Made by a program: the position numbers and the translations under genes. This document shows, piece by piece, positions 27,242 to 56,732 of a DNA stretch of 64,000 bases. A model generated the notes under the pieces. It ran no database searches and was not told where the DNA came from. It saw only the letters and a program-made list of their open reading frames with translations. Source of the stretch: Trypanosoma brucei (lineage: Eukaryota); NCBI GenBank assembly GCA_000002445.1, contig CM000207.1:1216001-1280000 (forward strand). The letters run 5' to 3'. The stretch's first letter is position 1. Every line of letters starts with the position of its first letter.

Positions 27242-28397
27242 ACAGGGGGTTTTATTGGGTAGCAATGTCTGTATCCACCGTTGAGCCCCACACTACCATG
27301 TCCTCACGGCGTGGTGTGCGTAAATGAATTTCCTTCTTATTCTCTGGTGGACCGACTGCATGGCCCTGACAGTTGCGGGAGGAAAAAAGTCCTGTATAAG
27401 AGTAACCAAAAAACGAATCGACCCTCCAGTCTACGTCAGAGAATCGTCCTTACAAGTCAACTGAGGAACCTTTTTCCGTACCCTTAAAACATGCCTGCGA
27501 TAAACCCCTCACCGTCCACCACGCAGCACGTACACATTTGTTACCTGAGGTTGCGGTTGCTGAGCAGTTGTCTGGTGTGTGTTTTGATGCTGTTGTTGCG
27601 GCAACGTTTCATGTGCCAAAGAAAATTATGAAATATATCCAATAAGTGTTTCTGCAACGAATAAGTAAGGTTATGTGAAACTAAAACACATAAAAGGATC
27701 ACTGCTTTCCATAGTTCCTGCATGAGCAGAGAATTGTTGGCACATAACATCTACTAACACTAGCCATACTGACAGCAACTTATTCCTCCTGCCCTCCGCC
27801 CTTGCACACACACCTCACAGTAACCAGTAACACCTCACAACTATTTTAAACATTCGGCTTATTGTCTCAACAAAAGTCAGAGGGTTAGTGACTTTCCTCT
27901 GTCACAAGCGGGGTTATTGCGACGGTAAGTTATTCCATTTTATCCACACATATATCAAATACAAAAAGTAATAATTAAGTGATGTCGCGTAACTGTTTTA
28001 GTCATAATTCAATGTGGAGTGTTGCGACCTTCAATTTCTTTCGAAGTGCGAGTTGGAGGCCATAAGCTTCTTCTCCTTGTTGGTAGTTATGTGGGACATG
28101 TTAGTTGGACTCGGTCACCATAAGTTCTGTCGTCTAACAGATAACAACAACATTATTTCTAAAAATTGTTATATACATTCAAAGAGTGAAATAGAGTGCA
28201 TTTGGATAGAATAAATTAAGTCTCAAAGCAACAAAAAGATACTGTTGAATTTACTGCAAACACATTACACAAACACTTTCAATGAACAAACACATTATAC
28301 CATTAACACAATTAAATTCCAAATACTATAACACATGTATTCTGTTCCAAAAAGTTACAATAAGTATTATGGTAATCACATCATAAGGTTATCACGA

Positions 28398-29366
28398 TTA
28401 AAGAAAAAAGGAAAAAAATGAAATCACAAGTGCAAATAATTTTTCCACCATATCTACATTTCGGTTATAAGCATAAGCACCATCAAAGGGTTTCCTCCTC
28501 ATGTAAGATAACATTGGTAGCAACATTGTATCATCAAGAAGGCATTGCTCCCTCTGTGCTGCAGTAAGATTGAGCCATGAGTTTTCAAGATACATTTTGT
28601 CAAGTTCCGCCTTTACACTGGGAGTGCTGTAACATGTTTCGGCAGAGCAAACGGTGCAACTGCGTTTCTTCATTCCTTCCTCAAACATTTGCGTCATCGA
28701 ATTAAGATGTCTTTTCAGGTTGTAAAGAGAAGCATTTTTCATCCGCAGGATTTCTGTTGTGGAATTAATAATATGTTGGGTAATGCTGTCGTTGCACTGT
28801 TGCTTTGACTTGTCAATTTTTTTAATTTTCTCTTTGTTTGATGTTTGAAGGGTCGCAACTGTTTCAGTTGAATATGTTGCTTTTTTGCTGTTCTCGCTGC
28901 ATATTACTTCTTCTGCCTTTTTAATTATTATTTTTTTTGCTTGTATTTTTTCTTTCCATCGCTGGAGTTCAGCCTTCAAGTTCTTGACCTGTTGTTCATA
29001 GGGTTTTGTTTTTGTGATTACCGGTTTGTTGCACAAACCTCTCCCTTCCACTTCGTCTTGCAACAATTTGTGTTTTTGAACTAATTCGTCAAGGGTTTTC
29101 TCGTTACTGCACTTCCAAAGCTTAGGAACGTTGGAATAATCAATCAAATCACAGAAGACCCAGTTCTTCTCATGGCTGTACGATCCTCGAACTGTCAAAG
29201 AAAGCCTTATCATATGATCCGTGTAATCCTCCTCCATCCATTTTGTATAATCGCAAGAATCAGCGCTTGCCCATTCACTTAAGCGAGACATCAGTAGCAA
29301 AACTCCAAATAGCATTCGCATTTTCCTAACGTCCCTGCGGAAGATAACATGAAACAGAACATTCAT
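28398..29366 (-). CDS. Array unit 1, type B: surface protein paralogue with a C-terminal hydrophobic tail (GPI-anchor or tail-anchor signal). C-terminus CTVCSAETCYSTPSVKAELDKMYLENSW...KPFDGAYAYNRNVDMVEKLFALVISFFSFFL.
   Basis: ATG at 29364-29366. The signal-peptide ATG (MRMLFGVLLLMSRLSEWASA) is at 29319-29321 and is probably the real start. Conserved W[IV]FCD...LWKCSNEKTL motif. Coiled-coil middle. Confidence 0.7.
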   Translation of the reverse strand: MNVLFHVIFRRDVRKMRMLFGVLLLMSRLSEWASADSCDYTKWMEEDYTDHMIRLSLTVRGSYSHEKNWVFCDLIDYSNVPKLWKCSNEKTLDELVQKHKLLQDEVEGRGLCNKPVITKTKPYEQQVKNLKAELQRWKEKIQAKKIIIKKAEEVICSENSKKATYSTETVATLQTSNKEKIKKIDKSKQQCNDSITQHIINSTTEILRMKNASLYNLKRHLNSMTQMFEEGMKKRSCTVCSAETCYSTPSVKAELDKMYLENSWLNLTAAQREQCLLDDTMLLPMLSYMRRKPFDGAYAYNRNVDMVEKLFALVISFFSFFL

Positions 29367-29595
29367 TTATTTTGCCCAAAACACACCTGCATAAGAGGGG
29401 CAATATTTTCATCTAAAGGACAAAACCAACTGTACCGATTCGCAAAATGATAATACCATGATAATTAACTAACATGTATGATATCCATAAAAATTCCATT
29501 ATTATTTCACATGATGGAAAGAAACATCTGCTTAAACTAACAGATTAATAAGTAAGAAAAGATACAAACATAGCATATTTTATTTCCATAGCTGT

Positions 29596-30453
29596 TTACA
29601 TGTTTTCATTATATTTTGAATTATTCCCTTCAGTATCCTCATGTGGCGCCCCGCATTTAACACCTGATTTTGTCCATCCATCTTTTCCATATAATTTATC
29701 CAAATTTTCCTTTATGTGCACATCATCCCAACAAGTCCCAGCGTCACATGCGGGACAATTATTATTTCCAAGTTTTTCCAGCTGTTGTTCCTTCAGTTCT
29801 ATTGCTTTCTTCACACTTTCGATTTCTTTGTCCATTCTTTCTAGTTCAAGGTCGTATTCCACTTGCTTTTGTAGCTTTTTTTTTTTGCACTCTGTTGCCT
29901 CTTTTTCCGAAAGTGTGTCCAGCCGTGCACTTTCGTTCGTGAGGTCCCGTATCTTACCATCCTCTTGTGACATCGTTTTCATTTCCTTTTGGCACTTCTT
30001 CTTTTCTTGAACCTCCCGTGTACTCCCTTCTTGAAGTCTCGCATGCTCCTCCTTCGCCTCCTCAATTTGCTGCTGCAGTTGCGCCACCTGCTCTTTAAGA
30101 AGCCTCACTGAACTATCTACCTTCGCTTTGCAAACAGTTACGTCACCCACTTCACCGCTCCAGTTGAATTTGCTGGTTATGAGGCTTGTCGGATTATTGT
30201 TACTTGAAGTACCACAAAACCACAACAATTCACTTCCACCTTCCCTCCTTCCGCTGTTGTTGCATAACATCCACTTGTAATTTCCGTTCGCAAATTCATC
30301 AGCGTTTACTATCACGGCATGAATATCCTCCTCTCTTCCGTCTACTTCATACCTTCTCAAGGTGCAACCTTCTGCCTTCCCTTCCCCCCTCCCACTAAAA
30401 AGCAATAGCGTCATCCCCGCCCACAAGAACATAGCTTTCCCACGCCCTTTCAT
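29596..30453 (-). CDS. Array unit 1, type A: secreted coiled-coil protein with no C-terminal hydrophobic tail. Ends ...NCPACDAGTCWDDVHIKENLDKLYGKDGWTKSGVKCGAPHEDTEGNNSKYNENM.
   Basis: The track ORF 29596..30468 starts at GTG. The first ATG is at 30451-30453 (MKGRGKAMFLWAGMTLLLFSG, a signal peptide). Conserved KWMLCN, LWFC, NWS motifs and the C-terminal Cys motif. Several N-x-S/T sequons. Confidence 0.7.
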   Translation of the reverse strand: MKGRGKAMFLWAGMTLLLFSGRGEGKAEGCTLRRYEVDGREEDIHAVIVNADEFANGNYKWMLCNNSGRREGGSELLWFCGTSSNNNPTSLITSKFNWSGEVGDVTVCKAKVDSSVRLLKEQVAQLQQQIEEAKEEHARLQEGSTREVQEKKKCQKEMKTMSQEDGKIRDLTNESARLDTLSEKEATECKKKKLQKQVEYDLELERMDKEIESVKKAIELKEQQLEKLGNNNCPACDAGTCWDDVHIKENLDKLYGKDGWTKSGVKCGAPHEDTEGNNSKYNENM

Positions 30454-33016: not shown

Positions 33017-33310
33017 TTATTGAGTTGGTTGCTGCTCACTTTGACACTGTGTAAAGATTTCCCATGCCCATTTACATGGTGCCGCATTGCCTTCATTTGC
33101 TTCCAAACATTTTGCATAAGTTTGGACATGAGCTGCACAGGCACCGTTACCAACTTGTTGTGCCACCTGTTGCAACTCAGTGGGTTGTGCAGGCGGGGCA
33201 TTGCGGTCGAAGAGCATATGTGAAATGCCGTGGCCAATGACGGAACCGGCTGCAACTGATGCCACATTTCCAAGGAGACCGCTACCCATTCCACCACGCA
33301 GCACGTACAC
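33017..33310 (-). pseudogene. N-terminally truncated CHCH-domain copy in array unit 2.
   Basis: The track start is GTG (33308-33310 reads cac). The conserved helix and twin Cx9C are intact. Confidence 0.6.
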
Positions 33311-34153
33311 ATTTGTTACCTGAGGTTGCGGTTGCTGAGCAGTTGTCTGGTGCGTGTTTTGATGCTGTTGTCGTGTGCCAAAGAAAATTATGAAATATAT
33401 CCAATAAGTGTTTCTGCAACGAATAAGTAAGGTTATGTGAAACTAAAACACATAAAAGGATCACTGCTTTCCATAGTTCCTGCATGAGCAGAGAATTGTT
33501 GGCACATAACATCTACTAACACTAGCCATACTGACAGCAACTTATTCCTCCTGCCCTCCATCCTTGCACACACACCTCACAGTAACCAGTAACACTTCAC
33601 AACTATTTTAAACATCTGGCTTATTGTCTCAACAAAAGTCAGAGGGTTAGTAACTTTCCTCGTGTCGCATGCGAGGTTGCTGCAAAATGCGAAGAGTTCC
33701 ACCTTATCGCACACACATATCAAATACAAAGAGTAATAATTAAGTAATGTCGCGTAACTGTTTTAGTTATAATTCAACGTGAAGTGTTACGGATCCTAAT
33801 TCCTTTCAGATTGGAAACCGCAAACCATACAGTCCTGCTTCTTGTTACAAGTCAAGTGGGACATGCTAATTGGATTCAACTTCAATTAATTCCGTCATTT
33901 GCAGGTAGCAATAACATCTATCCTAAGAATTGTTATTTGCATTTAAAGGGTGAAATTGAGTGCATTCAGATAAAACAAAATAAGACTCATAGCAACAGCA
34001 AAAAGAGACTCTTTAGGGTTTATGGCAAACACAATCAATGAACAAACACACTATACCATTAACACAATTAAATTCCAAATACTATAACACATGTATTCTG
34101 TTCCAAAAAGTTACAATAAGTATTATGGTAATCACATCATAAGATTATTCCGG

Positions 34154-35263
34154 TCAAATTAAAAAGCATAAAAATGAAATTAGAAGTGCAAATAGTTTTT
34201 CCATCATATCTACATTTTGGTTATAAGCATAAGCACCATCAAAGGGTTTCCTCCTCATGTAAGATAACATTGGTAGCAACATTGTATCATCAAGAAGGCA
34301 TTGCTCCCTCTGTGCTGCGGTAAGATTGAGCCATGAGTTTTCAAGATACATTTTGTCAAGTTCCGCCTTTACACTGGGAGTGCTGTAACATGTTTCGGCA
34401 GAGCAAGCGGTGCAACTGCGTTTCTTCATTCCTTCCTCAAAATTTCGTGTCAACGACTTTAACGTTTCCTTTAAGTCCTGGAGGGAAGCAAGTGCTGCAT
34501 TTATCCTTGTCTCTTGAGGACCGGCGATGTATTGCGTAATGTTTTTGTCGCATCGTTTCTTCTCCTTTGTGATGCTGGCTTGTTGTTCGTCAATATCTTC
34601 CTGTAGGCTCTCAATACTTGCACTCATTTCCTTTAATTTTGTAAGTTTATGATGGCATTTTCCGCTTTCCTCTTTCTTTTTGTCTTGTTCTCGTAGCACA
34701 GTGGCCACTTGATCTTCCTTCTTATTAAGTTCGATTTGCAAATCTGTAACTTTTTGTTTGTCCGCCCCCGTTTGGCTAGTTACTGTTATATTGCACAAAC
34801 CTCTTTTTTCTACTTCGTTTTGTAAAGGCTTGTTTTTCTCAACCAATTCATTTAGAGTTTTATCGTTGTCGCAGGTCCAAAGCTTAGGTTCCGTATCATG
34901 TTTCAGAGAATAGCAAAATATCCACGTTTTATCAACTTCAAAAAAATTTTCACTATTTGAAAAAAATCTCCTCCCGTAACCACTGTAATCATCTCCCCTC
35001 CACGTTACGTCACTGCATCGTTCATCACTTGCTCTCACAGTTAAGCAAAATATCAGCAACAATAATCCAAACAGTATTCGCATCTTCCTAATAATCTTAT
35101 AGCAGTTATCACGGAACAAAGCACGCATATATTTTTTCCATAAACACATTTGCATAAGAATAACCAAATTTACCATTAATGGAACAAAACCAACTGTACC
35201 GATTCGCAAAATGATATTATCATGATAATTAACTAACATGTATGATATCCATAAAAATTCCAT
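34154..35263 (-). CDS. Array unit 2, type B: surface protein with a C-terminal hydrophobic tail.
   Basis: ATG at 35261-35263 gives a 60 aa N-terminal extension. The signal-peptide ATG (MRILFGLLLLIFCLTVRA) is at 35081-35083 and is more plausible as the start. The C-terminal 90 aa are near-identical to the other B copies. Confidence 0.7.
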   Translation of the reverse strand: MEFLWISYMLVNYHDNIILRIGTVGFVPLMVNLVILMQMCLWKKYMRALFRDNCYKIIRKMRILFGLLLLIFCLTVRASDERCSDVTWRGDDYSGYGRRFFSNSENFFEVDKTWIFCYSLKHDTEPKLWTCDNDKTLNELVEKNKPLQNEVEKRGLCNITVTSQTGADKQKVTDLQIELNKKEDQVATVLREQDKKKEESGKCHHKLTKLKEMSASIESLQEDIDEQQASITKEKKRCDKNITQYIAGPQETRINAALASLQDLKETLKSLTRNFEEGMKKRSCTACSAETCYSTPSVKAELDKMYLENSWLNLTAAQREQCLLDDTMLLPMLSYMRRKPFDGAYAYNQNVDMMEKLFALLISFLCFLI

Positions 35264-35359
35264 TATTAATTCACATAGTGGAAAGAAATCTCTGCTGATA
35301 CTGACAGATTAATAAGTAAGAAAAGATACGAACCCAACATATTTTATTTCCATAACTGT

Positions 35360-36208
35360 TTACATGTTTTCATTATATTTTGAATTACTCTCCTCATTAC
35401 CCTCATGTGACACCCCGCATTTAACACCTGATTTTTTCCATCCATCTTTTCCATATAATTTATCCAAATTTTCCTTTATGTGCACATCATCCCAACAAGT
35501 CCCAGCGTCACATGCGGGACAATTATTATTTCCAAGTTTTTCCAGCTGTTGTTCCTTCAGCTCTATTGCTCTCTTAACGTATTGAATTTCATCTAAGACT
35601 TTCTCCAATCTCTCTTTGTAATTCCCCTCTGTCCATATTTTCCTGTTTTCACACTCTTTTTCTTCCTGTTTAAAAAGTGCATCCACTCGTTTTTTTTCAT
35701 CCTGAAGGCTCCTTACCTTGCCTTCGGAACCAGCCATTCTCCCAATATCCTCTTCGCACTGTTTCTTTTCTCGATCCACCTGTGTGCACGCTGCCCGAAG
35801 GCGCACAACTTCCTTGTCTTTCCCACCAATTCGCCCCCGTAGCTGTTCGGCTTCACGGTCTAGCTCCATCCGTCTCTCATGCACTTTCCTTTTACAAAAG
35901 GATATATCACCTCCACTACTCCAATTGAATCTGTTTGTAATGAGGTCTGTTGGTTGCTCATCGCTTGAAATATCACAAAGCCATAACATTTCATTTGCTC
36001 CACCTATTCTTTCGCTCCTGTTGCATATCATCCACTTATGATTTTTTACCAAGAGGTCATCATTAGCCTTCATCACAGCCACCTTATCATCAACCTCTCC
36101 ATCCTTTTGGATTCTAACACATTTGACAGCCTCCACCCTTTCTGTAAAAGCCAAAAACAATATCAACCCCGCCAAAGAAAAAAACATAAGTGTCCCATAC
36201 TCTTTCAT
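35360..36208 (-). CDS. Array unit 2, type A: secreted coiled-coil protein, 282 aa.
   Basis: ATG verified at 36206-36208 (MKEYGTLMFFSLAGLILFLAFT, a signal peptide). The C-terminus NCPACDAGTCWDDVHIKENLDKLYGKDGWKKSGVKCGVSHEGNEESNSKYNENM is almost identical to unit 1, but the central region is different. Confidence 0.75.
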   Translation of the reverse strand: MKEYGTLMFFSLAGLILFLAFTERVEAVKCVRIQKDGEVDDKVAVMKANDDLLVKNHKWMICNRSERIGGANEMLWLCDISSDEQPTDLITNRFNWSSGGDISFCKRKVHERRMELDREAEQLRGRIGGKDKEVVRLRAACTQVDREKKQCEEDIGRMAGSEGKVRSLQDEKKRVDALFKQEEKECENRKIWTEGNYKERLEKVLDEIQYVKRAIELKEQQLEKLGNNNCPACDAGTCWDDVHIKENLDKLYGKDGWKKSGVKCGVSHEGNEESNSKYNENM

Positions 36209-36330
36209 ATTGTTAGTTCACACTATATATCCTTCAAACACTTTCTTGTCCTTGTTAACAAATACATATACCCAAACCAAATGAAATAATAGCAACAGTG
36301 AGTGTTAACTATAGTGACAGCAGCTTCTTT

Positions 36331-38804: not shown

Positions 38805-39182
38805 TTATTGAGTTGGTTGCTGCTCACTTTGACACTGTGTAAAGGTTTCCCATGCCCATTTACATGGTGCCGCATTGCCTTCATTTGCTTCCAAACATTT
38901 TGCATAAGTTTGGACATGAGCTGCACAGGCACCGTTACCAACTTGTTGTGCCACCTGTTGCAACTCAGTGGGTTGTGCTGGCGGGGCATTGCGGTCAAAG
39001 AGCATATGTGAAATGCCGTGGCCAATGACGGAACCGGCTGCAACTGATGCCACATTTCCAAGGAGACCGCTACCCATTCCACCACGCTGCACGTACACAT
39101 TTATTACCTGAGGTTGCGGTTGCTGAGCAGTTGTCTGGTGTGTGTTTTGATGCTGTTGTTGCGGCAACGTTTCATGTGCCAA
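38805..39182 (-). pseudogene. N-terminally truncated CHCH-domain copy in array unit 3 (the track start is TTG).
   Basis: Retains QQHQNTHQTTAQQPQPQV of the ancestral linker. Upstream is junction sequence. Confidence 0.6.
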
Positions 39183-39954
39183 AGAAAATTAGGAAACACA
39201 TCCAATAAGTGCGTCTGCCACGAATATGTAAGGCTATGTGAAACTAAGACACATAAAAGGATCACTGCTTTCCATAGTTCCTGCATGAGCAGAGAATTGT
39301 TGGCACATAACATCTACTAACACTAGCCATACTGACAGCAACTTATTCCTCCTGCCCTCCATCCTTGCACACACACCTCACAGTAACCAGTAACACTTCA
39401 CAACTATTTTAAACATCTGGCTTATTGTCTCAACAAAAGTCAGAGGGTTAGTAACTTTCCTCGTGTCGCATGCGAGGTTGCTGCAAAATGCGAAGAGTTC
39501 CACCTTATCGCACACACATATCAAATACAAAGAGTAATAATTAAGTAATGTCGCGTAACTGTTTTAGTTATAATTCAACGTGAAGTGTTACGGATTCTAA
39601 TTCCTTTCAGATTGGAAACCGCAAACCATACAGTCCTGCTTCTTGTTACAAGTCAATTAGGACATGCTAATTGGATTCAACTTCAATTAATTCCGTCATT
39701 TGCAGGTAGCAATAACATCTATCCTAAGAATTGTTATTTGCATTTAAAGGGTGAAATTGAGTGCATTCAGATAAAACAAAATAAGACTCATAGCAACAGC
39801 AAAAAGAGACTCTTTAGGGTTTATGGCAAACACAATCAATGAACAAACACACTATACCATTAACACAATTAAATTCCAAATACTATAACACATGTATTCT
39901 GTTCCAAAAAGTTACAATAAGTATTATGGTAATCACATCATAAGATTATTCCGG

Positions 39955-44562: not shown

Positions 44563-44856
44563 TTATTGAGTTGGTTGCTGCTCACTTTGACACTGTGTAA
44601 AGGTTTCCCATGCCCATTTACATGGTGCCGCATTGCCTTCATTTGCTTCCAAACATTTTGCATAAGTTTGGACATGAGCTGCACAGGCACCGTTACAAAC
44701 TTGTTGTGCCACCTGTTGCAACTCAGTGGGTTGTGCAGGCGGGGCATTGCGGTCGAAGAGCATATGCGTAATGCCGTGTCCAATGACGGAACCGGCTGCA
44801 ACTGATGCCACATTTCCAAGGAGACCGCTACCCATTCCACCACGCAGCACGTACAC
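44563..44856 (-). pseudogene. N-terminally truncated CHCH-domain copy in array unit 4.
   Basis: Same as above. A few substitutions relative to the full copy (ITHMLF, QQVCNGA). Confidence 0.6.
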
Positions 44857-45699
44857 ATTTGTTACCTGAGGTTGCGGTTGCTGAGCAGTTGTCTGGTGTG
44901 TGTTTTGATGCTGTTGTCGTGTGCCAAAGAAAATTATGAAATATATCCAATAAGTGTTTCTGCAACGAATAAGTAAGGTTATGTGAAACTAAAACACATA
45001 AAAGGATCACTGCTTTCCATAGTTCCTGCATGAGCAGAGAATTGTTGGCACATAACATCTACTAACACTAGCCATACTGACAGCAACTTATTCCTCCTGC
45101 CCTCCATCCTTGCACACACACCTCACGGTAACCAGTAACACTTCACAACTATTTTAAACATCTGGCTTATTGTCTCAACAAAAGTCAGAGGGTTAGTAAC
45201 TTTCCTCGTGTCGCATGCGAGGTTGCTGCAAAATGCGAAGAGTTCCACCTTATCGCACACACATATCAAATACAAAGAGTAATAATTAAGTAATGTCGCG
45301 TAACTGTTTTAGTTATAATTCAACGTGAAGTGTTACGGATTCTAATTCCTTTCAGATTGGAAACCGCAAACCATACAGTCCTGCTTCTTGTTACAAGTCA
45401 AGTGGGACATGCTAATTGGATTCAACTTCAATTAATTCCGTCATTTGCAGGTAGCAATAACATCTATCCTAAGAATTGTTATTTGCATTTAAAGGGTGAA
45501 ATTGAGTGCATTCAGATAAAACAAAATAAGACTCATAGCAACAGCAAAAAGAGACTCTTTAGGGTTTATGGCAAACACAATCAATGAACAAACACACTAT
45601 ACCATTAACACAATTAAATTCCAAATACTATAACACATGTATTCTGTTCCAAAAAGTTACAATAAGTATTATGGTAATCACATCATAAGATTATTCCGG

Positions 45700-46641
45700 T
45701 CAAATTAAAAAGCATAAAAATGAAATTAGAAGTGCAAATAGTTTTTCCATCATATCTACATTTTGGTTATAAGCATAAGCACCATCAAAGGGTTTCCTCC
45801 TCATGTAAGATAACATTGGTAGCAACATTGTATCATCAAGAAGGCATTGCTCCCTGTGTGCTGCGGTAAGATTGAGCCATGAGTTTTCAAGATACTTGTT
45901 GTCAAGTTCCGCCTTTACACTGGGAGTGCTGTAACATGTTTCGGCAGAGCAAACACTGCAATTGTTTTTCTTTATTGCTTCCTCAAACATTTGTGTCGTC
46001 AAATTCAGCTGTTTCTTTAGGTCGTGGAGAGAAGCTTTTTTCTTTTTCAAGATTACTTTTTTGTGATTAGTGATATGATGTGTAATATTGTGATTGCATT
46101 GTTGCTTTACCTTCTCTATTTCATCTCTCTTTTCTCTGTTTGCTGTTTCGAGAGTTGCATTTGTTTGACTTTTGTCTCTTAACGTTTTTGGATCCTCGAT
46201 ACATGGTGGGTTTTTTTGCTTTGCTCCAGTGCTTTTTTTGTAATTTTCATTCTCGACCCCTAACTGCCGGAGTTTATCCTTCAATTTTTCAATTTTTTCT
46301 TTATGCACTCTTATTTGAGTTGCCACAGTACTGTCGCATAGATTTCCGCCCTCCACACTCTCTCGCAAAAGTTCGTGATTCTCGATTAAGTCTTTAAATG
46401 TTTTATCATTGCTACAACTCCAAACCTTTCCGCTTGTAAAATCATTAGACGCATCGCAAAACATCCACTTTTTATCATTTCCAAAAAGTTTCTCCCCACC
46501 CTTCAAAACAAAACTCCTCGCATCATCGACGCCCTCCTCTCTGTAAACATCTTCCCTCTCTTTTATATAATAGCATGGATTATCATCCGCCCATATTGTT
46601 ACGCAAGATATCAGCAACAACACTCCAAATAGTATTTGCAT
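45700..46641 (-). CDS. Array unit 4, type B: predicted protein identical to the unit 3 type B.
   Basis: The 334 aa track ORF is identical to 39955..40959, offset by exactly 5745 bp. Confidence 0.75.
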   Translation of the reverse strand: MQILFGVLLLISCVTIWADDNPCYYIKEREDVYREEGVDDARSFVLKGGEKLFGNDKKWMFCDASNDFTSGKVWSCSNDKTFKDLIENHELLRESVEGGNLCDSTVATQIRVHKEKIEKLKDKLRQLGVENENYKKSTGAKQKNPPCIEDPKTLRDKSQTNATLETANREKRDEIEKVKQQCNHNITHHITNHKKVILKKKKASLHDLKKQLNLTTQMFEEAIKKNNCSVCSAETCYSTPSVKAELDNKYLENSWLNLTAAHREQCLLDDTMLLPMLSYMRRKPFDGAYAYNQNVDMMEKLFALLISFLCFLI

Positions 46642-46917: not shown

Positions 46918-47775
46918 TTACATGTTTTCATTATATTTTGAATGATTCCCTTCAGTATCTTCATGTGACACCCCACATTTACCTCCTGATTTTGTCCATC
47001 CATCTTTTCCATATAGTTTATCCAACTCTTCCTTTATTTTCACATCATCCCAGCAAGCTTCAGCGTCACATGAGGGACACTTATTAATTCCAAGTTCTTC
47101 TAGTTGCTGTTCCTTTAGTTCTATTGCTTTCATAACATTTTTGATTTCTTCATCAATTTTTTCAAGTTCAATATCGTATTCCTTTTCCATATTTCGCTTA
47201 ATATTTTCACACTCTGTCATTTCCTTTTCAATAAGAGAGTTCATTCGAGCACCTTCATTTATGATGTTCTGTATCTTGGTATCAGTATCTGTTATTTTTT
47301 CTATCTGATCTTGGCATTCCTGCTTTGTCTCCTGTGCTTTTGCACCCAATATCTCCAGGTTTTTATTTATCATATCTTGCTCCACAATTTTACTGCTCAG
47401 CTGTATCTCCTCATCCTTAATTCTTTGGATCTCTTCCAGCACCTTCTTTTTACAGGTAGTTACGCTGCTTACATCATTACTCCAATTGAATTTGTTAACG
47501 AGAGTTGTGGGTGTCCCATCAATAGAGGCGTCGCACATCCAAAACACTTTATTTGCTTCTCCCACCCTATTAGTGACGTTGCATATCATCCATTTGTGAC
47601 GTCTACTCACGAAGTGATCACCATTTTCTATCACAGCCTCCATCACTCCTTCCACCTCCTCCCTTCTCACCATACAGGTTTTGGCTTTCGACTCGCCAGT
47701 GAAAACCAACAATATCACTCCCGCCAATGATAAAAACATAAGTGTCCCATACTCTTTCATATTGTCACCTCGCAT
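46918..47775 (-). CDS. Array unit 4, type A: predicted protein identical to the unit 3 type A.
   Basis: The 291 aa track ORF is identical to 41173..42048, offset by exactly 5745 bp. Confidence 0.75.
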   Translation of the reverse strand: MRGDNMKEYGTLMFLSLAGVILLVFTGESKAKTCMVRREEVEGVMEAVIENGDHFVSRRHKWMICNVTNRVGEANKVFWMCDASIDGTPTTLVNKFNWSNDVSSVTTCKKKVLEEIQRIKDEEIQLSSKIVEQDMINKNLEILGAKAQETKQECQDQIEKITDTDTKIQNIINEGARMNSLIEKEMTECENIKRNMEKEYDIELEKIDEEIKNVMKAIELKEQQLEELGINKCPSCDAEACWDDVKIKEELDKLYGKDGWTKSGGKCGVSHEDTEGNHSKYNENM

Positions 47776-50303: not shown

Positions 50304-50591
50304 TTATTGAGTTGGTTGCTGCTCACTTTGACACTGTGTAAAGGTTTCCCATGCCCATTTACATGGTGCCGCATTGCCTTCATTTGCTTCCAAACATTTT
50401 GCATAAGTTTGGACATGAGCTGCACAGGCACCGTTACCAACTTGTTGTGTTACCTGTTGCAACTCAGTGGGTTGTGCAGGCGGGGCATTGCGGTCGAAGA
50501 GCATATGTGAAATGCCGTGTCCAATGACGGAACCGGCTGCAACTGATGCCACATTTCCAAGGAGACCGCTACCCATTCCACCACGCTGCAC
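50304..50591 (-). pseudogene. N-terminally truncated CHCH-domain copy carried in array unit 5 (no ATG at the ORF start; an internal ATG exists at the GGMGSG Met).
   Basis: Identical to the 3' ~280 nt of 56057..56503. The track 'M' is a GTG. Upstream sequence diverges from the ancestral copy at the repeat junction (gttttgatg|...). Confidence 0.6.
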
Positions 50592-51442
50592 GTATACATT
50601 TGTTACCTGAGGTTGCGGTTGCTGAGCAGTTGTCTGGTGTGTGTTTTGATGATGTTAGTGTGTGCCGAAGAAAATTATGAAATATATCCAATAAGTGTTT
50701 CTGCAACGAATAAGTAAGGTTATGTGAAACTAAAACACATAAAAGGATCACTGCTTTCCATAGTTCCTGCATGAGCAGAGAATTGTTGGCACATAACATC
50801 TACTAACACTAGCCATACTGACAGCAACTTATTCCTCCTGCCCTCCATCCTTGCACACACACCTCACAGTAACCAGTAACACCTCACAACTATTTTAAAC
50901 ATCTGGCTTATTGTCTCAACAGGGATCAGAGGGTTGATGACATTCCCTCTGTCACAAGCGGGGTTATCGCGACGGTAAGTTATTTCATTTTATCCACACA
51001 TATATCAAATACAAAAAGTAATAATTAAGTGATGTCGCGTAACTGTTTTAGTCATAATTCACTGTGGAGTTTTGCGACCTTCAATTTCTTTCGAATTGCG
51101 AGTTGGAGGCCATACTGTTCCTGCTTCTTGTTGCAAGTCAATTAGGACATGTTAATTGGATTCATCCTCCATAAGTTCTGGCATTTGCAGGTAACAACAC
51201 CAGCATTATTTCTAAAAATTGTTATTTGCATTCAAAGAGTGAAATAGAGTGCATTTGGATAAAATAAATTAAGTCTCATAGCAACAGCAAAAAGAGACTC
51301 TTTAGGGTTTATTACAAACACATTCAATGAACAAACACACTATACCATTAACACAATTAAATTCCAAATACTATAACACATGTATTCTGTTCCAAAAAGT
51401 TACAATAAGTATTATGGTAATCACATCATAAGGTTATCACGA

Positions 51443-52378
51443 TTAAAGAAAAAAGCATAAAAATGAAATTACAAGTGCAAATAATTTTTCCATCATATCT
51501 ACATTTCGGTTATAAGCATAAGCACCATCAAAGGGTTTCCTCCTCATGTAAGATAACATTGGTAGCAACATTGCATCATCGAGAAGGCATTGCTCTCTCT
51601 GTGCCGCAGTAAGATTGAGCCATGAGTTTTCAAGATACTTGTTGTCGAGTTCCGCCTTTACACTGGGAGTGTTGTAACATGTTTCAGCAGAGCAAGCGGT
51701 GCAGCTGTTTTTGTTCATTTCCTCCTGTAGCTCCTGTGTTACTGTCTTTACTTGTTGTTTTAAATGGTTGAGAAGTGCAGCTTTTTTTTCCAATGCTACC
51801 TCTAGAGGAGCAGTGATTTCCTTAATGTCGCTGTTGCACTGTTGGTTCTTCCTCTTTATTTTGTTTTCTTTTTCGCGATTGTAGGCTTCAAGGGTTGTAA
51901 CGGTTGCATTCGAATTCTTTAATTTTGTGAGCAATTGCTTGCATTCATTACTTGCGTTCGTCTTCGTTGTGTGGTTCAGTTTGAGGAGCTCTGTATCAGC
52001 TTTCTTTTTGTCAAGCTCAGTTTGCAAATCCGTAACATTTTTCACCTGTATCTTCGTTTCGGTAGTTATTGTTTCGTTGCACAAGTCTCCCTTAACCACT
52101 TCATTTCGTAAAGACTCGTGATCCTCAACCAATTCATTTAGAGTTTTTTCGTTGCTGCAGTTCCAATAAAAGGAAACATTCCGCCGTCTTCGTTCCAACT
52201 CATCACAAAATATCCACTTCTTATCACTTTCAAAAAATTCCTCTCCACCCTTGGAAGAGAGAGCTTCCATTGATTTATTTTTTCCTTCCTCCATCCATTT
52301 TGTATAAGCGCAAGAATCAGCGCCTGCCCATTCATTTAAGCGAGAAATGAGCAACAAAACTCCAACTATCGTTCGCAT
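51443..52378 (-). CDS. Array unit 5, type B: surface protein with a C-terminal hydrophobic tail.
   Basis: ATG verified at 52376-52378 (MRTIVGVLLLISRLNEWAGADS). C-terminus SCTACSAETCYNTPSVKAELDNKYLENSW...LFALVISFLCFFL. Confidence 0.75.
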   Translation of the reverse strand: MRTIVGVLLLISRLNEWAGADSCAYTKWMEEGKNKSMEALSSKGGEEFFESDKKWIFCDELERRRRNVSFYWNCSNEKTLNELVEDHESLRNEVVKGDLCNETITTETKIQVKNVTDLQTELDKKKADTELLKLNHTTKTNASNECKQLLTKLKNSNATVTTLEAYNREKENKIKRKNQQCNSDIKEITAPLEVALEKKAALLNHLKQQVKTVTQELQEEMNKNSCTACSAETCYNTPSVKAELDNKYLENSWLNLTAAQREQCLLDDAMLLPMLSYMRRKPFDGAYAYNRNVDMMEKLFALVISFLCFFL

Positions 52379-52635: not shown

Positions 52636-53508
52636 TTATTTCCATAACTGTTTACATGCTTCCGTAACATTTTTAATGATTTCCCTAAATACTTTTGGAT
52701 AACACTTCACGTTTGACCCCGCATTCATCCATCCATCTCTTCCATATAGTTTATCCAACTCTTCCTTTATTTTCACATCATCCCAACAGGTCTCACCATC
52801 ACATGCGGGACACTCTTTATTCAACATAAGCATTTTCAATTGCTGCTTCTTTAGCTCCAATGTCTTATTCACATTTCTGATTTCTTCGTCCATTTTTTCA
52901 AGTTTACATTCGTATTCTTCCATCGCTTCATACTTCCCGTTTTCGCACTCTCTTGTCTCTTTTTCCATAAGCGTGTCCAGTCGTGCACTTTCTTTCGTAA
53001 GGTTCCATATCTTACCGTCCTCCTTAGTAACTATTCCAACCTCCTTCCAACATTCCTGTTTTGCTTGATCTGCCTCCTCACTCTCTGCTCGAAGACGCTT
53101 ATGCTCATTTTCTTCGTCGCCAATCATCTTCCGGAGTTCCGCTGCCTCCTTCTCAAGGTTCTCCTTCTTCTCCTGCACTTTTGTTTTGCAAACAGTTATG
53201 TTACTTACCTCACTGCTCCAGCTAAGTTTCTTCATGATGATACTTGTGGGATGTTCATTATTTGAGGCATCACAAAACCACTTAATTTTATTTCTCTCCT
53301 CCTTTGTCCCGCTGCTGTTGCATACCATCCACATCGGCTCAGAGCTCATAAAGTAATGACCGTTATCGATTTCAGCCACAACATCTCCTTCTTTGCCTTT
53401 TAAAGTGCAAATATCCGCGTCCACCCTCCCAGTGAAAACCAACAATATCACTCCCGCCAATGATAAAAACATAAGTGTCCCATACTCTTTCATATTGTCA
53501 CCTCGCAT
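52636..53508 (-). CDS. Array unit 5, type A: secreted coiled-coil protein whose C-terminal tail differs from the other A copies (...DGWMNAGSNVKCYPKVFREIIKNVTEACKQLWK).
   Basis: The track ORF starts at TTG (53565). ATGs are at 53506-53508 and 53491-53493 (MKEYGTLMFLSLAGVILLVFTG). The conserved KECPACDGETCWDDVKIKEELDKLYGRDGW is followed by a divergent tail. This is caused by indels relative to the other units (compare 52636-52760 with 41173-41290). Confidence 0.7.
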   Translation of the reverse strand: MRGDNMKEYGTLMFLSLAGVILLVFTGRVDADICTLKGKEGDVVAEIDNGHYFMSSEPMWMVCNSSGTKEERNKIKWFCDASNNEHPTSIIMKKLSWSSEVSNITVCKTKVQEKKENLEKEAAELRKMIGDEENEHKRLRAESEEADQAKQECWKEVGIVTKEDGKIWNLTKESARLDTLMEKETRECENGKYEAMEEYECKLEKMDEEIRNVNKTLELKKQQLKMLMLNKECPACDGETCWDDVKIKEELDKLYGRDGWMNAGSNVKCYPKVFREIIKNVTEACKQLWK

Positions 53509-56056
53509 TATATATCCTTCAAACACTTTCTTGTCCTTGTTAACAAATACATATACCCAAACCAAATGGAATAATAGAAACAGCGAGTGTTAATTATAGT
53601 GACAGCAGCTTCTTTTCTTACCTTACCTTACCTTACCGTGGCACCGAATCTGCTTCCTTATTAACATACTGCACCATCTCAAGACAGAAAATTGATACTA
53701 AAAATTAACAAAAAGAACATAGATGTGATCCAAATATCAAATAAAGCACCATCCACACACAAGCGCAAGCCTTTCACAGAATAGATACACGAAATAAATG
53801 AACACACATTTTCTGATCATCACACGCATATGCATATCCTACATTAATTTCAGTTAACAGCTTTTGTCGTTAGCAATCCTTATTCCATCCCCGTACGTCT
53901 TACACTCTATTTCCCACGGCCTACAACACATATCAGATGCGCTACCACTTCTATCCTACCACCACAAACTCACATTAATCAAATCCCCTCCATTTTCTCT
54001 TCCCCGCACGCAATTAGGGTTCAGTAAACGCAGTAGCATCACAATTCTGGAGATTCCGGTAATGCGATCACCCTGAAGAACAATTAATATTAACGGGCTG
54101 CATCTCTCACTACAATTCCACATAACGACACACCCCATGAAATATGAGAACTTTTGGTGACATTATATCGTTTGGCATTTCCTACCAACATTCAAAAGGA
54201 TTTGCCACACATCACAATTAGTTACTGTATATCGTAAAACACCGTGAAATAGTGTAGCAGTACGAGAAAAAGGGAGTCTCTAGTCCCTCTCCCGTAACTT
54301 CATCATTTCAATAAATGCTAACAGTGGCTATAACCCCAAACAGAAAAAACAAGGAACAACAACATATGGGATATTCGACTAAATCCCATCTCTCTGCATC
54401 ACAGTGTCACCTGGAATGCATCTTTCACCTCGAGTTGAAGTAAACAAAATAATTCCTACAGTATCGAATGGAAATATAACAGAAATGCATAACATATGAT
54501 AGGTAATACGTAATACATATTCCAGCACTTTTGTCACTATACGCGGAGATCTGACATGTTGGGAAACAAAATATACAACATCAACATTACTCCAATTGCA
54601 TCAGCCTCACAATACACTCAAGTGAAAGAAATGTAGAACTCAAGTACTGGAAATGCGAGATATCATAAACTTGCCACAGTTAAACTCAGTGAAAACAAAT
54701 GCAATCTGGAAGTAAGTGTAACTAATGTATGGAATGACTGGAATTGTTGGAAATACAGAATTTAATATAACTAAAAATAATACGTGTATTTTCATGCCAC
54801 ACGGAATAAAAAATGTGATAGAATACAACAACAGTAACCACAGTGGCTGAAATTCAAATAACACAGTTAAGTCACAGTTGCAGCATAAACACTTCTGGAA
54901 AGACTCCATAAAGGGAAAGAAAACTAATCATATTTCAAAGACTCAATTAGGCGTGGAAGAGAAACGGCAACTGGTACAAAATTAATGTAACTGCAGGAAC
55001 ATAGTGACACCAAGTGGCCATAAACTCAAGCGCCTGATGTGAAACCTCACCTCCTGAATCTTATTAGTAATGTGTAAACAAAAAAAGAAAGCATAGAATC
55101 ATTGCACTCAATGCTTCCATCATTGCATATTTTGAATGTTTGTAAGTAAGCTAAGCTATTATATTGTGCGTATATTTATATATTTTCTTCCCCTGGTAAA
55201 AGAGTAAGGAATGAGAAGAGCTTATTCAAGAAAAATACTGAAGTGTAGTGGTGAAAACAACAACTCTTGCAGCAACTGAAAGAGCAGTGAGCGTACAAAT
55301 GAATATGCTCATGCAATGCCTTCAACTTCACGCACGTTTAGCATAATGTGAGATACAGAGGCATCACTTAGTAGAAAAAAATAATAAAGTGTGGAATAAT
55401 AATAATAATAATAGTGGTAATTGTAATACCAAAGAAATAGAGGTTATAGGGGTGGCAATAATAGTAACAAATTTACTATATATGGAAAAGAAAGTGTCGT
55501 ATTCTCGAAAGTAATAAAGAGAGTAATAAGAAAAGGAAGAAGTGCAACACTGAATATTTTACTGGTTGAAACTGATTCGAAGAGAACATGGTATCAGTAG
55601 AGTTGTAGGTGCTTCTCAATTCAGTAAAATGGTTGTGACCACACAAATATGTTTTCCCTCTCATGCACAAACTCTCCTTCCTTTCCTCTTTTTATTTCTC
55701 ACTCATATGCCTTCATTTCCTTATCTTTTTCTTTGTTCTCACTTTTCTAAACCTTCACATCACTTCGTTACAAAGCCACTCAAATCTCGAACTACCAGTT
55801 TTGATAAATGCACCATGTCGAGTAAAACTTCCCCATGAGGACAGAAAACATGTTGACAAGAGGAGTGACATAATCATTCACTGGTTAGAGTCCACACTCG
55901 CAACAATGGAAAGAAATAAATCAGAAGTAAAACAACAAAGAGAAAAACAAATTATATGGAAACACCAGCTTTCCCATTCCTCTCTTATTGCCTCAATATA
56001 TCTTTCTTTCTTTCCTTTCTCCCTACAAACATTTGCCTCTTTCCTATACTGATAAT

Positions 56057-56503
56057 TTATTGAGTTGGTTGCTGCTCACTTTGACACTGTGTAAAGGTTT
56101 CCCATGCCCATTTACATGGTGCCGCATTGCCTTCATTTGCTTCCAAACATTTTGCATAAGTTTGGACATGAGCTGCACAGGCACCGTTACCAACTTGTTG
56201 TGCCACCTGTTGCAACTCAGTGGGTTGTGCTGGCGGGGCATTGCGGTCGAAGAGCATATGTGAAATGCCGTGGCCAATGACGGAACCGGCTGCAACTGAT
56301 GCCACATTTCCAAGGAGACCGCTACCCATTCCACCACGCTGCACGTACACATTTGTTACCTGAGGTTGCGGTTGCTGAGCAGTTGTCTGGTGTGTGTTTT
56401 GATGATTATGTTGTTGTTGTTGATGTGGTGGTGGTGTTGTGCGTGCGGGTGAAGCCGCAGCGGCGGGGCGCGGAGATGAGGCTGAACGACGAGTGCGAGC
56501 CAT
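56057..56503 (-). CDS. Full-length twin-Cx9C CHCH-domain protein of the CHCHD2/CHCHD10/Mix17 type (mitochondrial intermembrane space).
   Basis: ATG verified at 56501-56503. Arg/Ser/Ala/Pro-rich N-terminus (MARTRRSASSPRPAAAASPARTT), then a Gln/His-rich linker. The conserved hydrophobic helix GMGSGLLGNVASVAAGSVIGHGISHMLF compares with human CHCHD2 AAGVAVGSAVGHTLGHAITGGF. Two Cx9C pairs: CAAHVQTYAKC and CKWAWETFTQC. Confidence 0.75.
   Translation of the reverse strand: MARTRRSASSPRPAAAASPARTTPPPHQQQQHNHQNTHQTTAQQPQPQVTNVYVQRGGMGSGLLGNVASVAAGSVIGHGISHMLFDRNAPPAQPTELQQVAQQVGNGACAAHVQTYAKCLEANEGNAAPCKWAWETFTQCQSEQQPTQ

Positions 56504-56727: not shown

Positions 56728-56732
<5 letters not shown>

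What the first reader, a model, noticed from the sequence alone, without database searches (positions are those of the whole stretch)
27515..56342. Five-unit tandem array of alternating paralogous secreted (type A) and membrane-anchored (type B) coiled-coil proteins, suggesting a heterodimeric surface receptor
Each ~5.75 kb unit encodes two distantly related proteins with the same architecture. Both have a signal peptide, an N-terminal Cys module (W[IMV][IFL]C[DN] ... LW.C), a long coiled coil, and the shared C-terminal motif C-x-A-C-x-A-x-T-C-[WY]-x(4)-[IV]K-x-E-LDK[LM]Y-x(3)-W. Type A ends in a hydrophilic tail (KYNENM). Type B ends in a ~13-residue hydrophobic tail preceded by small residues (FDGAYAYNQNVDMMEKLFALLISFLCFLI), a typical GPI-signal or tail-anchor shape. 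A co-amplified soluble/anchored pair is the arrangement seen in the trypanosome ESAG6/ESAG7 transferrin receptor, where only one subunit is GPI-anchored. The A and B products may likewise form a heterodimeric receptor or binding protein on the cell surface. I do not recognise the family with certainty. From memory, ESAG9-family genes (variable, secreted, some with a GPI anchor, stumpy-enriched) map near spermidine synthase on T. brucei chromosome 9, which would be consistent. Treat that as unverified recollection.
Basis: partly seen in the sequence, partly recalled or inferred. Interest (0 to 1): 0.85.

Follow-up and report, generated by a model that had tools for sequence, protein, structure and literature searches.

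The report
Trypanosome Family 7 surface-gene array
This is the already catalogued but functionally unknown "Family 7" gene array of Trypanosoma brucei chromosome 9: five repeats, each pairing a secreted-type protein with a lipid-anchored relative. The idea that the two proteins pair up on the parasite surface fits the sequence but has not been shown.

Summary
**Observation:** confirmed. The window is T. brucei TREU927 chromosome 9. Five ~5.75 kb tandem units lie at about 27,610-56,413, with genes on the minus strand. Each unit carries a type A gene (signal peptide, no anchor) followed by a type B gene (signal peptide plus GPI-type tail). A and B are true distant paralogues (hhalign 99%, E 3e-18).

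each unit also carries a copy of a CHCH/Mic17-like gene.

**Already in the literature:** these are genes Tb927.9.7850-7960.
- Cell-surface phylome Family 7, specific to T. brucei.
- Copy number varies between strains.
- Enriched in stumpy forms and repressed by REG9.1 together with ESAG9.

**Not ESAG9, not VSG/ESAG6/7-like:** a profile search of 1.84 billion proteins found only the family itself, and fold searches gave only generic coiled coils.

**New here:**
- The ectodomains are anciently diverged (dS above 1) inside nearly identical flanks.
- Two cysteines sit exactly five heptads apart at coiled-coil core positions in every A and B.
- A and B rods carry opposite net charge in every cognate pair.
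- There is a possible relic of a GPI signal after the type A stop codon.

**Heterodimer idea:** plausible and testable, but unproven. B mRNAs respond far more strongly to REG9.1 loss than A mRNAs. Function remains unknown.

The parts
27610..56413 (-). Whole tandem array: 5 units of about 5.75 kb. In transcription order each unit is a CHCH-like copy, then type A, then type B.
   Evidence: Repeat families with spacing 5,737-5,813 bp. Unit alignment. The right boundary falls inside the CHCH gene at about residue 31. The left boundary is where homology to the other units ends.
28398..29315 (-). B1 = Tb927.9.7850, 305 aa, signal peptide plus GPI-type tail
   Evidence: ORF and exact NCBI protein match XP_827130. 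Labelled family 7 in Rico 2017 S2.
29596..30432 (-). A1 = Tb927.9.7860 (annotated from 30453), signal peptide, no anchor, ends KYNENM
   Evidence: The coordinates match Tb927_09_v4:1245596-1246453.
33020..33373 (-). N-terminally truncated CHCH/Mic17-like copy (residues 31-148)
   Evidence: tblastn with the T. b. gambiense 148-aa protein, 96.6% identity.
34154..35083 (-). B2 = Tb927.9.7870, 309 aa
   Evidence: 100% match to XP_827132. Coordinates.
35360..36208 (-). A2 = Tb927.9.7880, 282 aa
   Evidence: Exact match XP_827133. Coordinates.
35309..35359 (-). In-frame read-through after the A2 stop codon (TVMEIKYVGFVSFLTY, then a stop). Possible relic of a GPI-signal hydrophobic tail. The same sequence follows the stop in A1, A3 and A4.
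   Evidence: Local score 24 against the B tail, p about 0.02-0.03. tblastn carries B2 to residue 307 across the A stop.
38808..39161 (-). Truncated CHCH-like copy
   Evidence: 98.3% identity.
39955..40896 (-). B3 = Tb927.9.7900, 313 aa
41173..42015 (-). A3 = Tb927.9.7910 (annotated from 42030)
   Evidence: The AF2 model was built from this copy.
39660..42584 (.). 2.9 kb block identical base for base to its counterpart in unit 4. It covers B3, the A-B spacer and A3.
   Evidence: All 74 mismatches between unit 3 and unit 4 lie outside this block.
44566..44919 (-). Truncated CHCH-like copy
   Evidence: 95.8% identity.
45700..46641 (-). B4 = Tb927.9.7930, protein identical to B3
46918..47760 (-). 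A4 = Tb927.9.7940, protein identical to A3. Probably the Family 7 exemplar Tb09.v1.0540.
   Evidence: The ID mapping is inferred from the constant offset.
50307..50651 (-). Truncated CHCH-like copy
   Evidence: 98.3% identity.
51443..52378 (-). B5 = Tb927.9.7950, 311 aa. Together with A5 it forms the ancestral unit shared with other subspecies.
   Evidence: 83% identity to the single T. b. gambiense B. Collinear with L001.
52636..53493 (-). A5 = Tb927.9.7960, 285 aa, with the alternative C-terminus ...EACKQLWK
   Evidence: 82% identity to the T. b. gambiense A, which has the same tail. The same tail occurs in T. equiperdum copies.
56060..56503 (-). Full-length CHCH/Mic17-like gene = Tb927.9.7980, the source of the four truncated copies
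   Evidence: tblastn 95.9% over 148 aa. Sub-threshold Pfam CHCH/COX6B hits. Literature.

Best explanation
**Shown.**
- The region is the T. brucei-specific cell-surface-phylome Family 7 array, Tb927.9.7850-7960.
- It arose by tandem duplication of a three-gene segment: part of the CHCH gene Tb927.9.7980, a type A gene and a type B gene. It was seeded from the unit nearest the upstream genes, which is the only unit present in T. b. gambiense.
- A and B are ancient paralogues, about 20% identical, with one architecture:
  - a cleavable signal peptide;
  - a small Cys-containing N-terminal domain (modelled as a four-strand beta domain, low confidence);
  - a coiled-coil-type helix of about 130 residues;
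  - a conserved CxxCxxxxC...C C-terminal module.
- B continues into a GPI-addition signal. A stops before it.

**Inferred mechanism (my best guess).**
- A and B enter the secretory pathway and pair in parallel and in register through the long helix.
- Interchain disulfides at the two conserved core-position cysteines would lock the pair.
- This would give a heterodimer with a single GPI anchor, with the variable heads and rod pointing outward and the conserved C-terminal module next to the membrane.
- Published data place expression in transmission-competent stumpy bloodstream forms, under post-transcriptional repression by REG9.1. That repression probably acts mainly through the B 3'UTR.
- The ligand is unknown. 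Four deeply diverged ectodomain versions kept inside homogenised flanks suggest selection for diversity, either immune-driven or ligand-driven.
For: **Identity.**
- Exact protein matches to TREU927 chromosome 9.
- Coordinates match the published gene coordinates.
- The genes are labelled family 7 (Family 7 definition).
- A 5x repeat in TREU927 versus a single pair in T. evansi and T. b. gambiense. I confirmed the single pair in L001.

**Architecture.**
- A/B homology.
- AF2 of mature A3: beta domain plus helix 68-196 at pLDDT about 90.
- Heptad a/d pattern along residues 69-197, with Cys123 and Cys158 at d positions.
- The Cys-Cys spacing is 35 residues in all nine distinct A and B sequences.

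**Anchor.**
- B tail shape.
- Published BigPI and FragAnchor predictions.
- Possible relic GPI signal after the A stop codon.

**Pairing.**
- A and B are adjacent and intact in TREU927 (5 pairs), DAL972 (1), T. b. equiperdum IVM-t1 (2) and T. equiperdum OVI (1 or more).
- Rod net charges are opposite in all five cognate pairs, including the one pair where both signs are flipped.
- Both genes are under purifying selection, omega 0.2-0.6.

**Diversity.** Ectodomain-coding DNA is 52-63% identical with dS above 1. Non-coding DNA is 83-99% identical, and the C-terminal coding part has dS 0.02-0.2 among units 1-3 (higher, up to about 1.2, for A5).

**Expression.** Stumpy-enriched and derepressed by REG9.1 RNAi.
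Against: - There is no direct evidence of an A-B interaction, and a multimer prediction could not be run.
- Electrostatic scoring of e/g heptad positions does not favour hetero- over homodimers.
- On REG9.1 depletion, B mRNAs rise 7- to 12-fold and A mRNAs only 1.4- to 3-fold. The two are therefore not strictly co-regulated.
- Family 7 proteins were not seen in stumpy proteomes (Rico 2017).
- No Family 7 entry appears in the bloodstream-form surface proteome of Lister 427. The genes are not annotated in that strain.
- The model is only moderately confident: pTM 0.28, head pLDDT about 62.
- The cysteines are also placed symmetrically about the rod centre, which would equally fit an antiparallel hairpin or an antiparallel dimer.
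- One T. equiperdum B protein lacks the first rod cysteine.
Confidence: 0.4

Rival explanations
1. A and B act independently. Each forms its own homo-oligomeric coiled coil. B is a GPI-anchored surface protein and A a freely released factor, as reported for ESAG9. They are amplified together only because they are neighbours inside one duplication unit.
For: - The duplication unit also carries an unrelated CHCH gene fragment, so co-amplification alone says nothing about function.
- A and B respond very differently to REG9.1 loss.
- e/g scoring gives homodimers scores as good as heterodimers.
Against: - A-B adjacency with both ORFs intact is kept in every strain examined, including single-pair genomes.
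- Rod length and Cys register are identical in A and B despite about 20% identity.
- Rod charges are opposite in every cognate pair.
Confidence: 0.35
2. The extra units are dispensable, strain-specific amplification with little function, or are decaying. Only the ancestral pair, if any, matters.
For: - Copy number runs from 1 to 5 between strains.
- Expression is low (AveExpr 3.5-6).
- No protein-level detection has been reported.
Against: - All ten ORFs are intact.
- dN/dS is 0.2-0.6 over very long divergence, with dS above 1.
- Signal peptide, ten cysteines and the C-terminal motif are conserved in every copy.
- Transcripts from all units are regulated.
Confidence: 0.12
3. The genes belong to the ESAG9 family.
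For: - Shared regulation: stumpy-enriched and repressed by REG9.1.
- ESAG9 genes Tb927.9.7340 and Tb927.9.7370 lie on the same chromosome, about 80 kb away by the coordinates.
Against: - The published classification separates them: Family 2 versus Family 7.
- A full HMMER profile search of 1.84 billion representatives returned only the two Family 7 representatives at E 0.001 or better.
- The word-indexed searches returned only Family 7 proteins.
Confidence: 0.03
4. The pair is a diverged VSG-fold receptor homologous to ESAG6/ESAG7 or PAG proteins.
For: - Same gene arrangement, with adjacent GPI-plus and GPI-minus paralogues.
- One T. equiperdum homologue carries the UniRef name 'Trypanosomal VSG domain containing protein'.
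Against: - No Pfam VSG hit.
- No PDB sequence hit.
- The model shows one long helix rather than a three-helix bundle.
- The locus is chromosome-internal, not a VSG expression site.
Confidence: 0.03

Closest known systems
Cell-surface phylome Family 7 (Fam7) of T. brucei. Described in Jackson 2013, Rico 2017, and as 'the Tb927.9.7950/7960 repeat' in Carnes 2015.
   Same: It is this locus. The gene IDs and coordinates match, it is restricted to T. brucei, it has a signal peptide, it is a tandem array, and copy number differs between strains.
   Different: Nothing differs. In the papers I could search, I did not find any of the following stated:
- the family consists of two alternating sub-types, GPI-plus and GPI-minus;
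- the two sub-types respond unequally to REG9.1;
- the ectodomains are anciently diverged inside homogenised flanks.
ESAG6/ESAG7 transferrin receptor of T. brucei
   Same: Adjacent paralogous genes, only one of which carries a GPI signal. Multiple copies with variable ectodomains. Specific to the lineage. The anchorless partner looks like a truncation of an anchored ancestor.
   Different: - No sequence or fold similarity.
- A and B are about 20% identical (ESAG6 and ESAG7 differ by p = 0.114).
- Single long coiled-coil helix rather than a VSG-type bundle.
- Chromosome-internal locus.
- Stumpy-enriched rather than expressed in proliferating bloodstream forms.
- Heterodimer and ligand both unproven.
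ESAG9 (Family 2)
   Same: Specific to T. brucei, secretory, stumpy-enriched, repressed by REG9.1.
   Different: A different sequence family with no detectable homology.
Anopheles LRIM1/APL1C, a disulfide-linked coiled-coil heterodimer of two paralogues that controls the complement-like protein TEP1
   Different: - No leucine-rich repeat domain.
- The PDB profile search does not retrieve it among the 60 best of 62 matches at E 10 or better.

The resemblance is not specific.

Membership tests
Cell-surface phylome Family 7 (T. brucei) | Gene identity: members are Tb927.9.7850-7950 (exemplar Tb09.v1.0540) | tested here: met
   The window ORF coordinates equal the published coordinates of Tb927.9.7860/7870/7880/7900/7910. 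Those IDs are labelled family 7 in Rico 2017 S2.
Cell-surface phylome Family 7 (T. brucei) | Restricted to the T. brucei clade | tested here: met
   The profile search of 1.84 billion representatives found only the family's own two clusters. All word-indexed hits are T. brucei subspecies or T. equiperdum.
Cell-surface phylome Family 7 (T. brucei) | Stumpy-enriched mRNA repressed by REG9.1 | not testable with these tools
   Taken from Rico 2017.
ESAG9 (Family 2) | Sequence similarity to ESAG9 proteins | tested here: not met
   No ESAG9 protein was recovered by the profile or single-sequence searches. The two are separate families in Jackson 2013 Table S1.
ESAG6/ESAG7 transferrin receptor (Family 15) | Homology to a-type VSG and a three-helix-bundle fold | tested here: not met
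ESAG6/ESAG7 transferrin receptor (Family 15) | Adjacent paralogues, one with and one without a GPI signal | tested here: met
ESAG6/ESAG7 transferrin receptor (Family 15) | Physical heterodimer that binds transferrin | not testable with these tools
No experimental data were found.
ESAG6/ESAG7 transferrin receptor (Family 15) | Located in a telomeric VSG expression site | tested here: not met
   The array lies within a chromosome-internal run of minus-strand genes between Tb927.9.7830 and Tb927.9.7980.
GPI-anchored protein (type B only) | N-terminal signal peptide plus a C-terminal signal: small omega and omega+2 residues, a polar spacer, then a terminal hydrophobic stretch with no cytoplasmic tail | tested here: met
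   ...PFD-G-A, then YAYNQNVDMMEK, then LFALLISFLCFLI at the very C-terminus. BigPI and FragAnchor were positive in Savage 2012 (the old-to-new ID mapping is inferred).
GPI-anchored protein (type B only) | Biochemical proof of the anchor | not testable with these tools
   None found.
LRIM1/APL1C-type coiled-coil heterodimer | Leucine-rich repeat domain | tested here: not met
   No LRR or any other Pfam domain.
LRIM1/APL1C-type coiled-coil heterodimer | Specific similarity of the coiled-coil region | tested here: inconclusive

The most novel reading that the evidence does not exclude
Family 7 A/B is a second, independently evolved heterodimer with a single GPI anchor in T. brucei, unrelated to the VSG fold. 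In this reading a disulfide-stapled parallel coiled coil of about 19 nm (129 helical residues) lifts a hypervariable head above the VSG coat of stumpy forms, while the conserved C-terminal module stays hidden at the membrane. It binds a host or tsetse factor at transmission. The target could be a thioester protein of the C3/TEP type, as LRIM1/APL1C binds in mosquitoes.
Probability: 0.15. Interest if true: 0.8.

Novelty: already known. Interest (0 to 1): 0.4.

Why it matters
Stumpy forms are the only bloodstream stage that transmits to tsetse. Family 7, Family 5 and ESAG9 are the T. brucei-only surface or secreted families switched on in that stage, and none has a known function. A defined, testable structural hypothesis for Family 7 would help: one GPI-anchored subunit holding one soluble subunit through a disulfide-locked coiled coil, with the variable end facing outward. 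It would tell experimenters three things:
- tag and express A and B together;
- look for disulfide-linked complexes;
- treat the four ectodomain variants as separate ligand-binding or antigenic types.

The locus itself and its regulation are already published, so the gain is incremental.

Tried and rejected
1. **Pfam scan of A and B.** Only sub-threshold coiled-coil noise.
2. **PDB sequence searches with three profiles.** Generic coiled coils only.
3. **Profile search of 1.84 billion proteins and two word-indexed searches.** No relatives beyond the family. ESAG9 and VSG kinship were therefore dropped.
4. **AF2 of B1 with a 7-sequence alignment.** Too poor to use: pLDDT 54.9, pTM 0.22.
5. **A pseudo-multimer.**
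   - The natural in-frame A2...B2 stretch was rejected for its stop codons.
6. **Disulfide-stapled antiparallel hairpin.**
   - I considered it because the four rod cysteines are symmetric about the rod centre.
   - AF2 drew a continuous helix at pLDDT about 90, and conserved core residues run through the supposed turn.
   - I therefore rank it below the parallel dimer, but it is not excluded.
7. **e/g salt-bridge scoring of hetero- versus homodimers.** Not discriminating.
8. **Whole-gene dN/dS.** Below 1 everywhere. No evidence for positive selection at this resolution, and dS is saturated between units.
9. **afdb50 fold library.** Unavailable.
10. **Rfam and tandem-repeat scans of the array.** Nothing found.
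11. **Surface-proteome supplement (Gadelha 2015).** No Family 7 entry.

Full report
**Source and observation**

The window is Trypanosoma brucei brucei TREU927 chromosome 9.
- The ORF products match NCBI proteins XP_827130-827139 exactly, on a 3,057,547-bp contig.
- The ORF coordinates map one-to-one onto published coordinates. Window position 1 is Tb927_09_v4 position 1,216,001. For example, Tb927.9.7860 at 1245596-1246453 is window 29596-30453.
- Spermidine synthase (window 8796-9692) is Tb927.9.7770.

- Repeat families recur five times with start-to-start spacing of 5,737-5,813 bp.
- Ten intact minus-strand ORFs alternate between two types.
- The repeated block spans about 27,610-56,413.

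**Anatomy**

With eukaryotic ATG starts, the genes are:

| Gene | Coordinates | ID |
|---|---|---|
| B1 | 28398-29315 | Tb927.9.7850 |
| A1 | 29596-30432 | Tb927.9.7860 |
| B2 | 34154-35083 | Tb927.9.7870 |
| A2 | 35360-36208 | Tb927.9.7880 |
| B3 | 39955-40896 | Tb927.9.7900 |
| A3 | 41173-42015 | Tb927.9.7910 |
| B4 | 45700-46641 | Tb927.9.7930 |
| A4 | 46918-47760 | Tb927.9.7940 |
| B5 | 51443-52378 | Tb927.9.7950 |
| A5 | 52636-53493 | Tb927.9.7960 |

- Transcription runs from high to low coordinates, so each A lies upstream of its B, separated by only about 276 nt.
- A and B are about 20% identical but clearly homologous along their whole length: hhalign 99%, E 2.9e-18, 247 columns; BLASTP E 3e-12. 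They share ten aligned cysteines.
- Both begin with a hydrophobic signal-peptide-like segment followed by a small-residue cleavage motif, VEA|V in A2 and VRA|S in B2.
- B ends ...PFDGAYAYNQNVDMMEKLFALLISFLCFLI. That is D-G-A as a plausible omega site, a polar spacer, and a 13-residue hydrophobic end with nothing after it.
- A1-A4 end ...SKYNENM.
- A5 ends ...EACKQLWK because it is read in another frame over the same DNA. That tail is also found in the T. b. gambiense and T. equiperdum A genes, so it is an old allele and not a lesion.

Each unit holds a third same-strand ORF.
- A full 148-codon CHCH/Mic17-like gene sits at 56060-56503. This is Tb927.9.7980, an intermembrane-space-type protein.
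- Four copies lacking the first 30 codons sit at 50307-50651, 44566-44919, 38808-39161 and 33020-33373, at 96-98% identity.
- The duplicated segment is therefore part of the CHCH gene, then A, then B. Co-amplification of A with B is not in itself evidence of a functional link.

**History of the array**

- The syntenic T. b. gambiense DAL972 locus (L001) has one CHCH gene, one A and one B between the same neighbours. It is collinear with window 50,721-63,461 and 14,647-20,766.
- Its A and B are 82-83% identical to A5 and B5 and only 44-56% identical to the other units. Unit 5 is therefore the shared ancestral unit.
- T. b. equiperdum IVM-t1 has two units, both of the unit-5 type, with intact though unannotated A ORFs. 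T. equiperdum OVI has a unit-5-type pair plus a fifth B lineage, P0004.
- Carnes 2015 had already reported "a 5x repeat" in TREU927 against a single pair in T. evansi STIB805 and DAL972.

**Mosaic conservation (new here)**

- In an alignment of the units, non-coding DNA is 83-99% identical. The parts encoding the mature N-terminal domain and the rod of both genes fall to 52-63% identity.
- Between units, synonymous divergence in those parts is saturated, with dS about 1 to above 2.7. In the C-terminal coding part dS is only 0.02-0.2 among units 1-3 and in all B copies; A5, with its different tail, is the exception at about 1.0-1.2.
- dN/dS is 0.2-0.6 throughout. This also holds among the less diverged unit-5-type alleles from four genomes, which have dS 0.15-0.3, apart from near-identical allele pairs (dS below 0.01).
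- Both genes are therefore under purifying selection overall. The ectodomain variants are old, while the flanks, signal peptides and C-terminal modules have been homogenised recently.
- Units 3 and 4 share a 2.9-kb block of perfect identity covering both genes. All 74 differences between them lie outside it. This indicates a very recent conversion or duplication.
- The pattern means one of two things. Either diversity in the outward-facing part is maintained by selection, or divergence there has passed the point at which recombination can erase it.

**Structure**

- No Pfam domain was found, and there is no PDB relative by sequence.
- AF2 of B1 on seven sequences was poor, with pLDDT 54.9.
- AF2 of mature A3 on a 12-sequence A+B alignment gave pLDDT 70.4 and pTM 0.28:
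  - a four-strand beta domain at pLDDT about 62;
  - one continuous helix over residues 68-196 at pLDDT about 90;
  - a low-confidence C-terminal part.
- Column-wise hydrophobicity shows an a/d heptad pattern from residue 69 to 197. The register shifts between about 151 and 173, where most B types carry a proline.
- The two cysteines inside the rod occupy d positions. They are exactly 35 residues (five heptads) apart in all nine distinct sequences.
- Cysteines at core positions of an in-register parallel coiled coil are placed to form interchain disulfides. This is my inference from general coiled-coil knowledge.
- The four rod-flanking cysteines are also symmetric about the rod centre, so an antiparallel arrangement is not excluded.

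**Anchor and origin of type A**

- Savage 2012 predicted GPI anchors with BigPI and FragAnchor for Tb09.v1.0450, 0470, 0500, 0530 and Tb09.211.0010.
- Adding 7400 to the four Tb09.v1 numbers gives 7850, 7870, 7900 and 7930, exactly the B genes. The fifth ID is flagged as conserved in T. b. gambiense, as B5 is. This mapping is my inference.
- Downstream of the A1-A4 stop codon the frame reads TVMEIKYVGFVSFLTY and then a second stop. This aligns with the B tail MMEKLFALLISFLCF (score 24):
  - 3.2% of stop-free peptides from array non-coding DNA reach that score;
  - 1.7% of shuffles reach it.
- tblastn extends B2 to residue 307 of 309 across the A stop.
- The evidence is weak because T-rich DNA encodes hydrophobic residues in any frame. 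It still suggests that A descends from an anchored ancestor that lost its GPI signal to a nonsense codon, the route proposed for ESAG7 from ESAG6.

**What is already published**

- Jackson 2013 made it Family 7. The entry gives ten members, specific to T. brucei, with a signal peptide and about three-fold higher array signal in bloodstream forms than in procyclic forms. ESAG9 is the separate Family 2.
- Rico 2017 reported the following:
  - Family 7 mRNAs are stumpy-enriched on northern blots.
  - They are derepressed, together with ESAG9 and Family 5, when the RNA-binding protein REG9.1 is depleted.
  - The proteins were not seen in stumpy proteomes.
  - There is an HHpred resemblance of the coiled coil to LRIM1/APL1C.
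- Their S2 table shows something the text does not discuss:
  - the five B genes rise by log2FC 2.75-3.58;
  - the four listed A genes rise by only 0.46-1.59.
- A later search found no functional follow-up.

**Interpretation**

The ESAG6/7 comparison is a fair analogy in gene arrangement and probably in origin, but there is no homology to it. The ESAG9 assignment is wrong as a family, though right about stage and regulation.

For the heterodimer:
- A and B are adjacent and intact in every genome examined.
- Rod length and cysteine register are the same in A and B despite about 20% identity.
- A rods carry net charges of -3, +3, -12, -7 and -8. Their B partners carry +9, -1, +8, +3 and +3. The signs are opposite in all five pairs, including the one pair where both are reversed. 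Only about four lineages are independent, so this is weak.

Against it:
- The REG9.1 response of A and B is unequal.
- e/g scoring is non-discriminating.
- There is no interaction data.

I put the heterodimer at about 0.4 and independent action at about 0.35.

**Verdict**

The feature is a known, catalogued and uncharacterised family, so its novelty is low. The heterodimer hypothesis with a single GPI anchor, the mosaic conservation and the A/B regulatory asymmetry are useful and testable additions, but none is demonstrated.

Noticed in passing
window 20400-26000 (+ strand): A degenerate ingi-type retrotransposon. It has reverse transcriptase, RNase H and C2H2 zinc-finger ORFs split over three frames, and it lies in the opposite orientation to all neighbouring genes, just downstream of the array. 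The syntenic T. b. gambiense locus has no matching sequence here.
   Followed up: partly
window 33020-33373, 38808-39161, 44566-44919, 50307-50651 (full copy at 56060-56503): Four N-terminally truncated, 96-98% identical copies of the CHCH/Mic17-like gene Tb927.9.7980 ride along in the repeat units. Whether they are expressed as shortened proteins or are dead fragments is unknown.
   Followed up: partly
window 28000-56000: The array is an AT-rich island, with GC 0.35-0.40 against 0.47-0.54 in the flanking genes. GC skew is strongly negative over the coding parts.
   Followed up: no
window 52636-52720 (A5 C-terminus) and L001, L003, L004: A5 reads the shared 3' DNA in a different frame from A1-A4, giving ...EACKQLWK instead of ...KYNENM. 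The same tail is present in T. b. gambiense and T. equiperdum, so two C-terminal forms of type A coexist.
   Followed up: yes
window 39660-42584 and its counterpart at 45405-48329: Units 3 and 4 are identical base for base over 2.9 kb, covering B, the spacer and A. They differ at 74 sites elsewhere, which indicates a very recent conversion tract.
   Followed up: yes
Rico 2017 S2 table (genes Tb927.9.7850-7950): On REG9.1 knock-down all five B genes rise log2FC 2.75-3.58, but the A genes rise only 0.46-1.59. Tb927.9.7960 (A5) is absent from the family list. The paper's text does not comment on this asymmetry.
   Followed up: partly
window 8796-9692 (spermidine synthase, Tb927.9.7770): Rico 2017's table tags spermidine synthase as 'Family 2' (ESAG9). 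No ESAG9-like ORF was seen in the window.
   Followed up: partly
L002:171-1115 (T. equiperdum OVI protein P0004): This fifth B lineage, 59% identical to B3, has Ile in place of the first rod cysteine. That would leave a partner cysteine unpaired. Its A partner lies off the end of the contig.
   Followed up: no
window 34154-36208 and 39955-42015: In units 2 and 3 (and 4) the A and B coding sequences are in the same reading frame, separated by only two stop codons across the 276-nt spacer. In units 1 and 5 they are out of frame.
   Followed up: no
protein P0005 (T. equiperdum): UniRef names this B-type homologue 'Trypanosomal VSG domain containing protein'. No VSG Pfam domain scored on the window proteins, and no VSG structure was hit.
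   Followed up: partly
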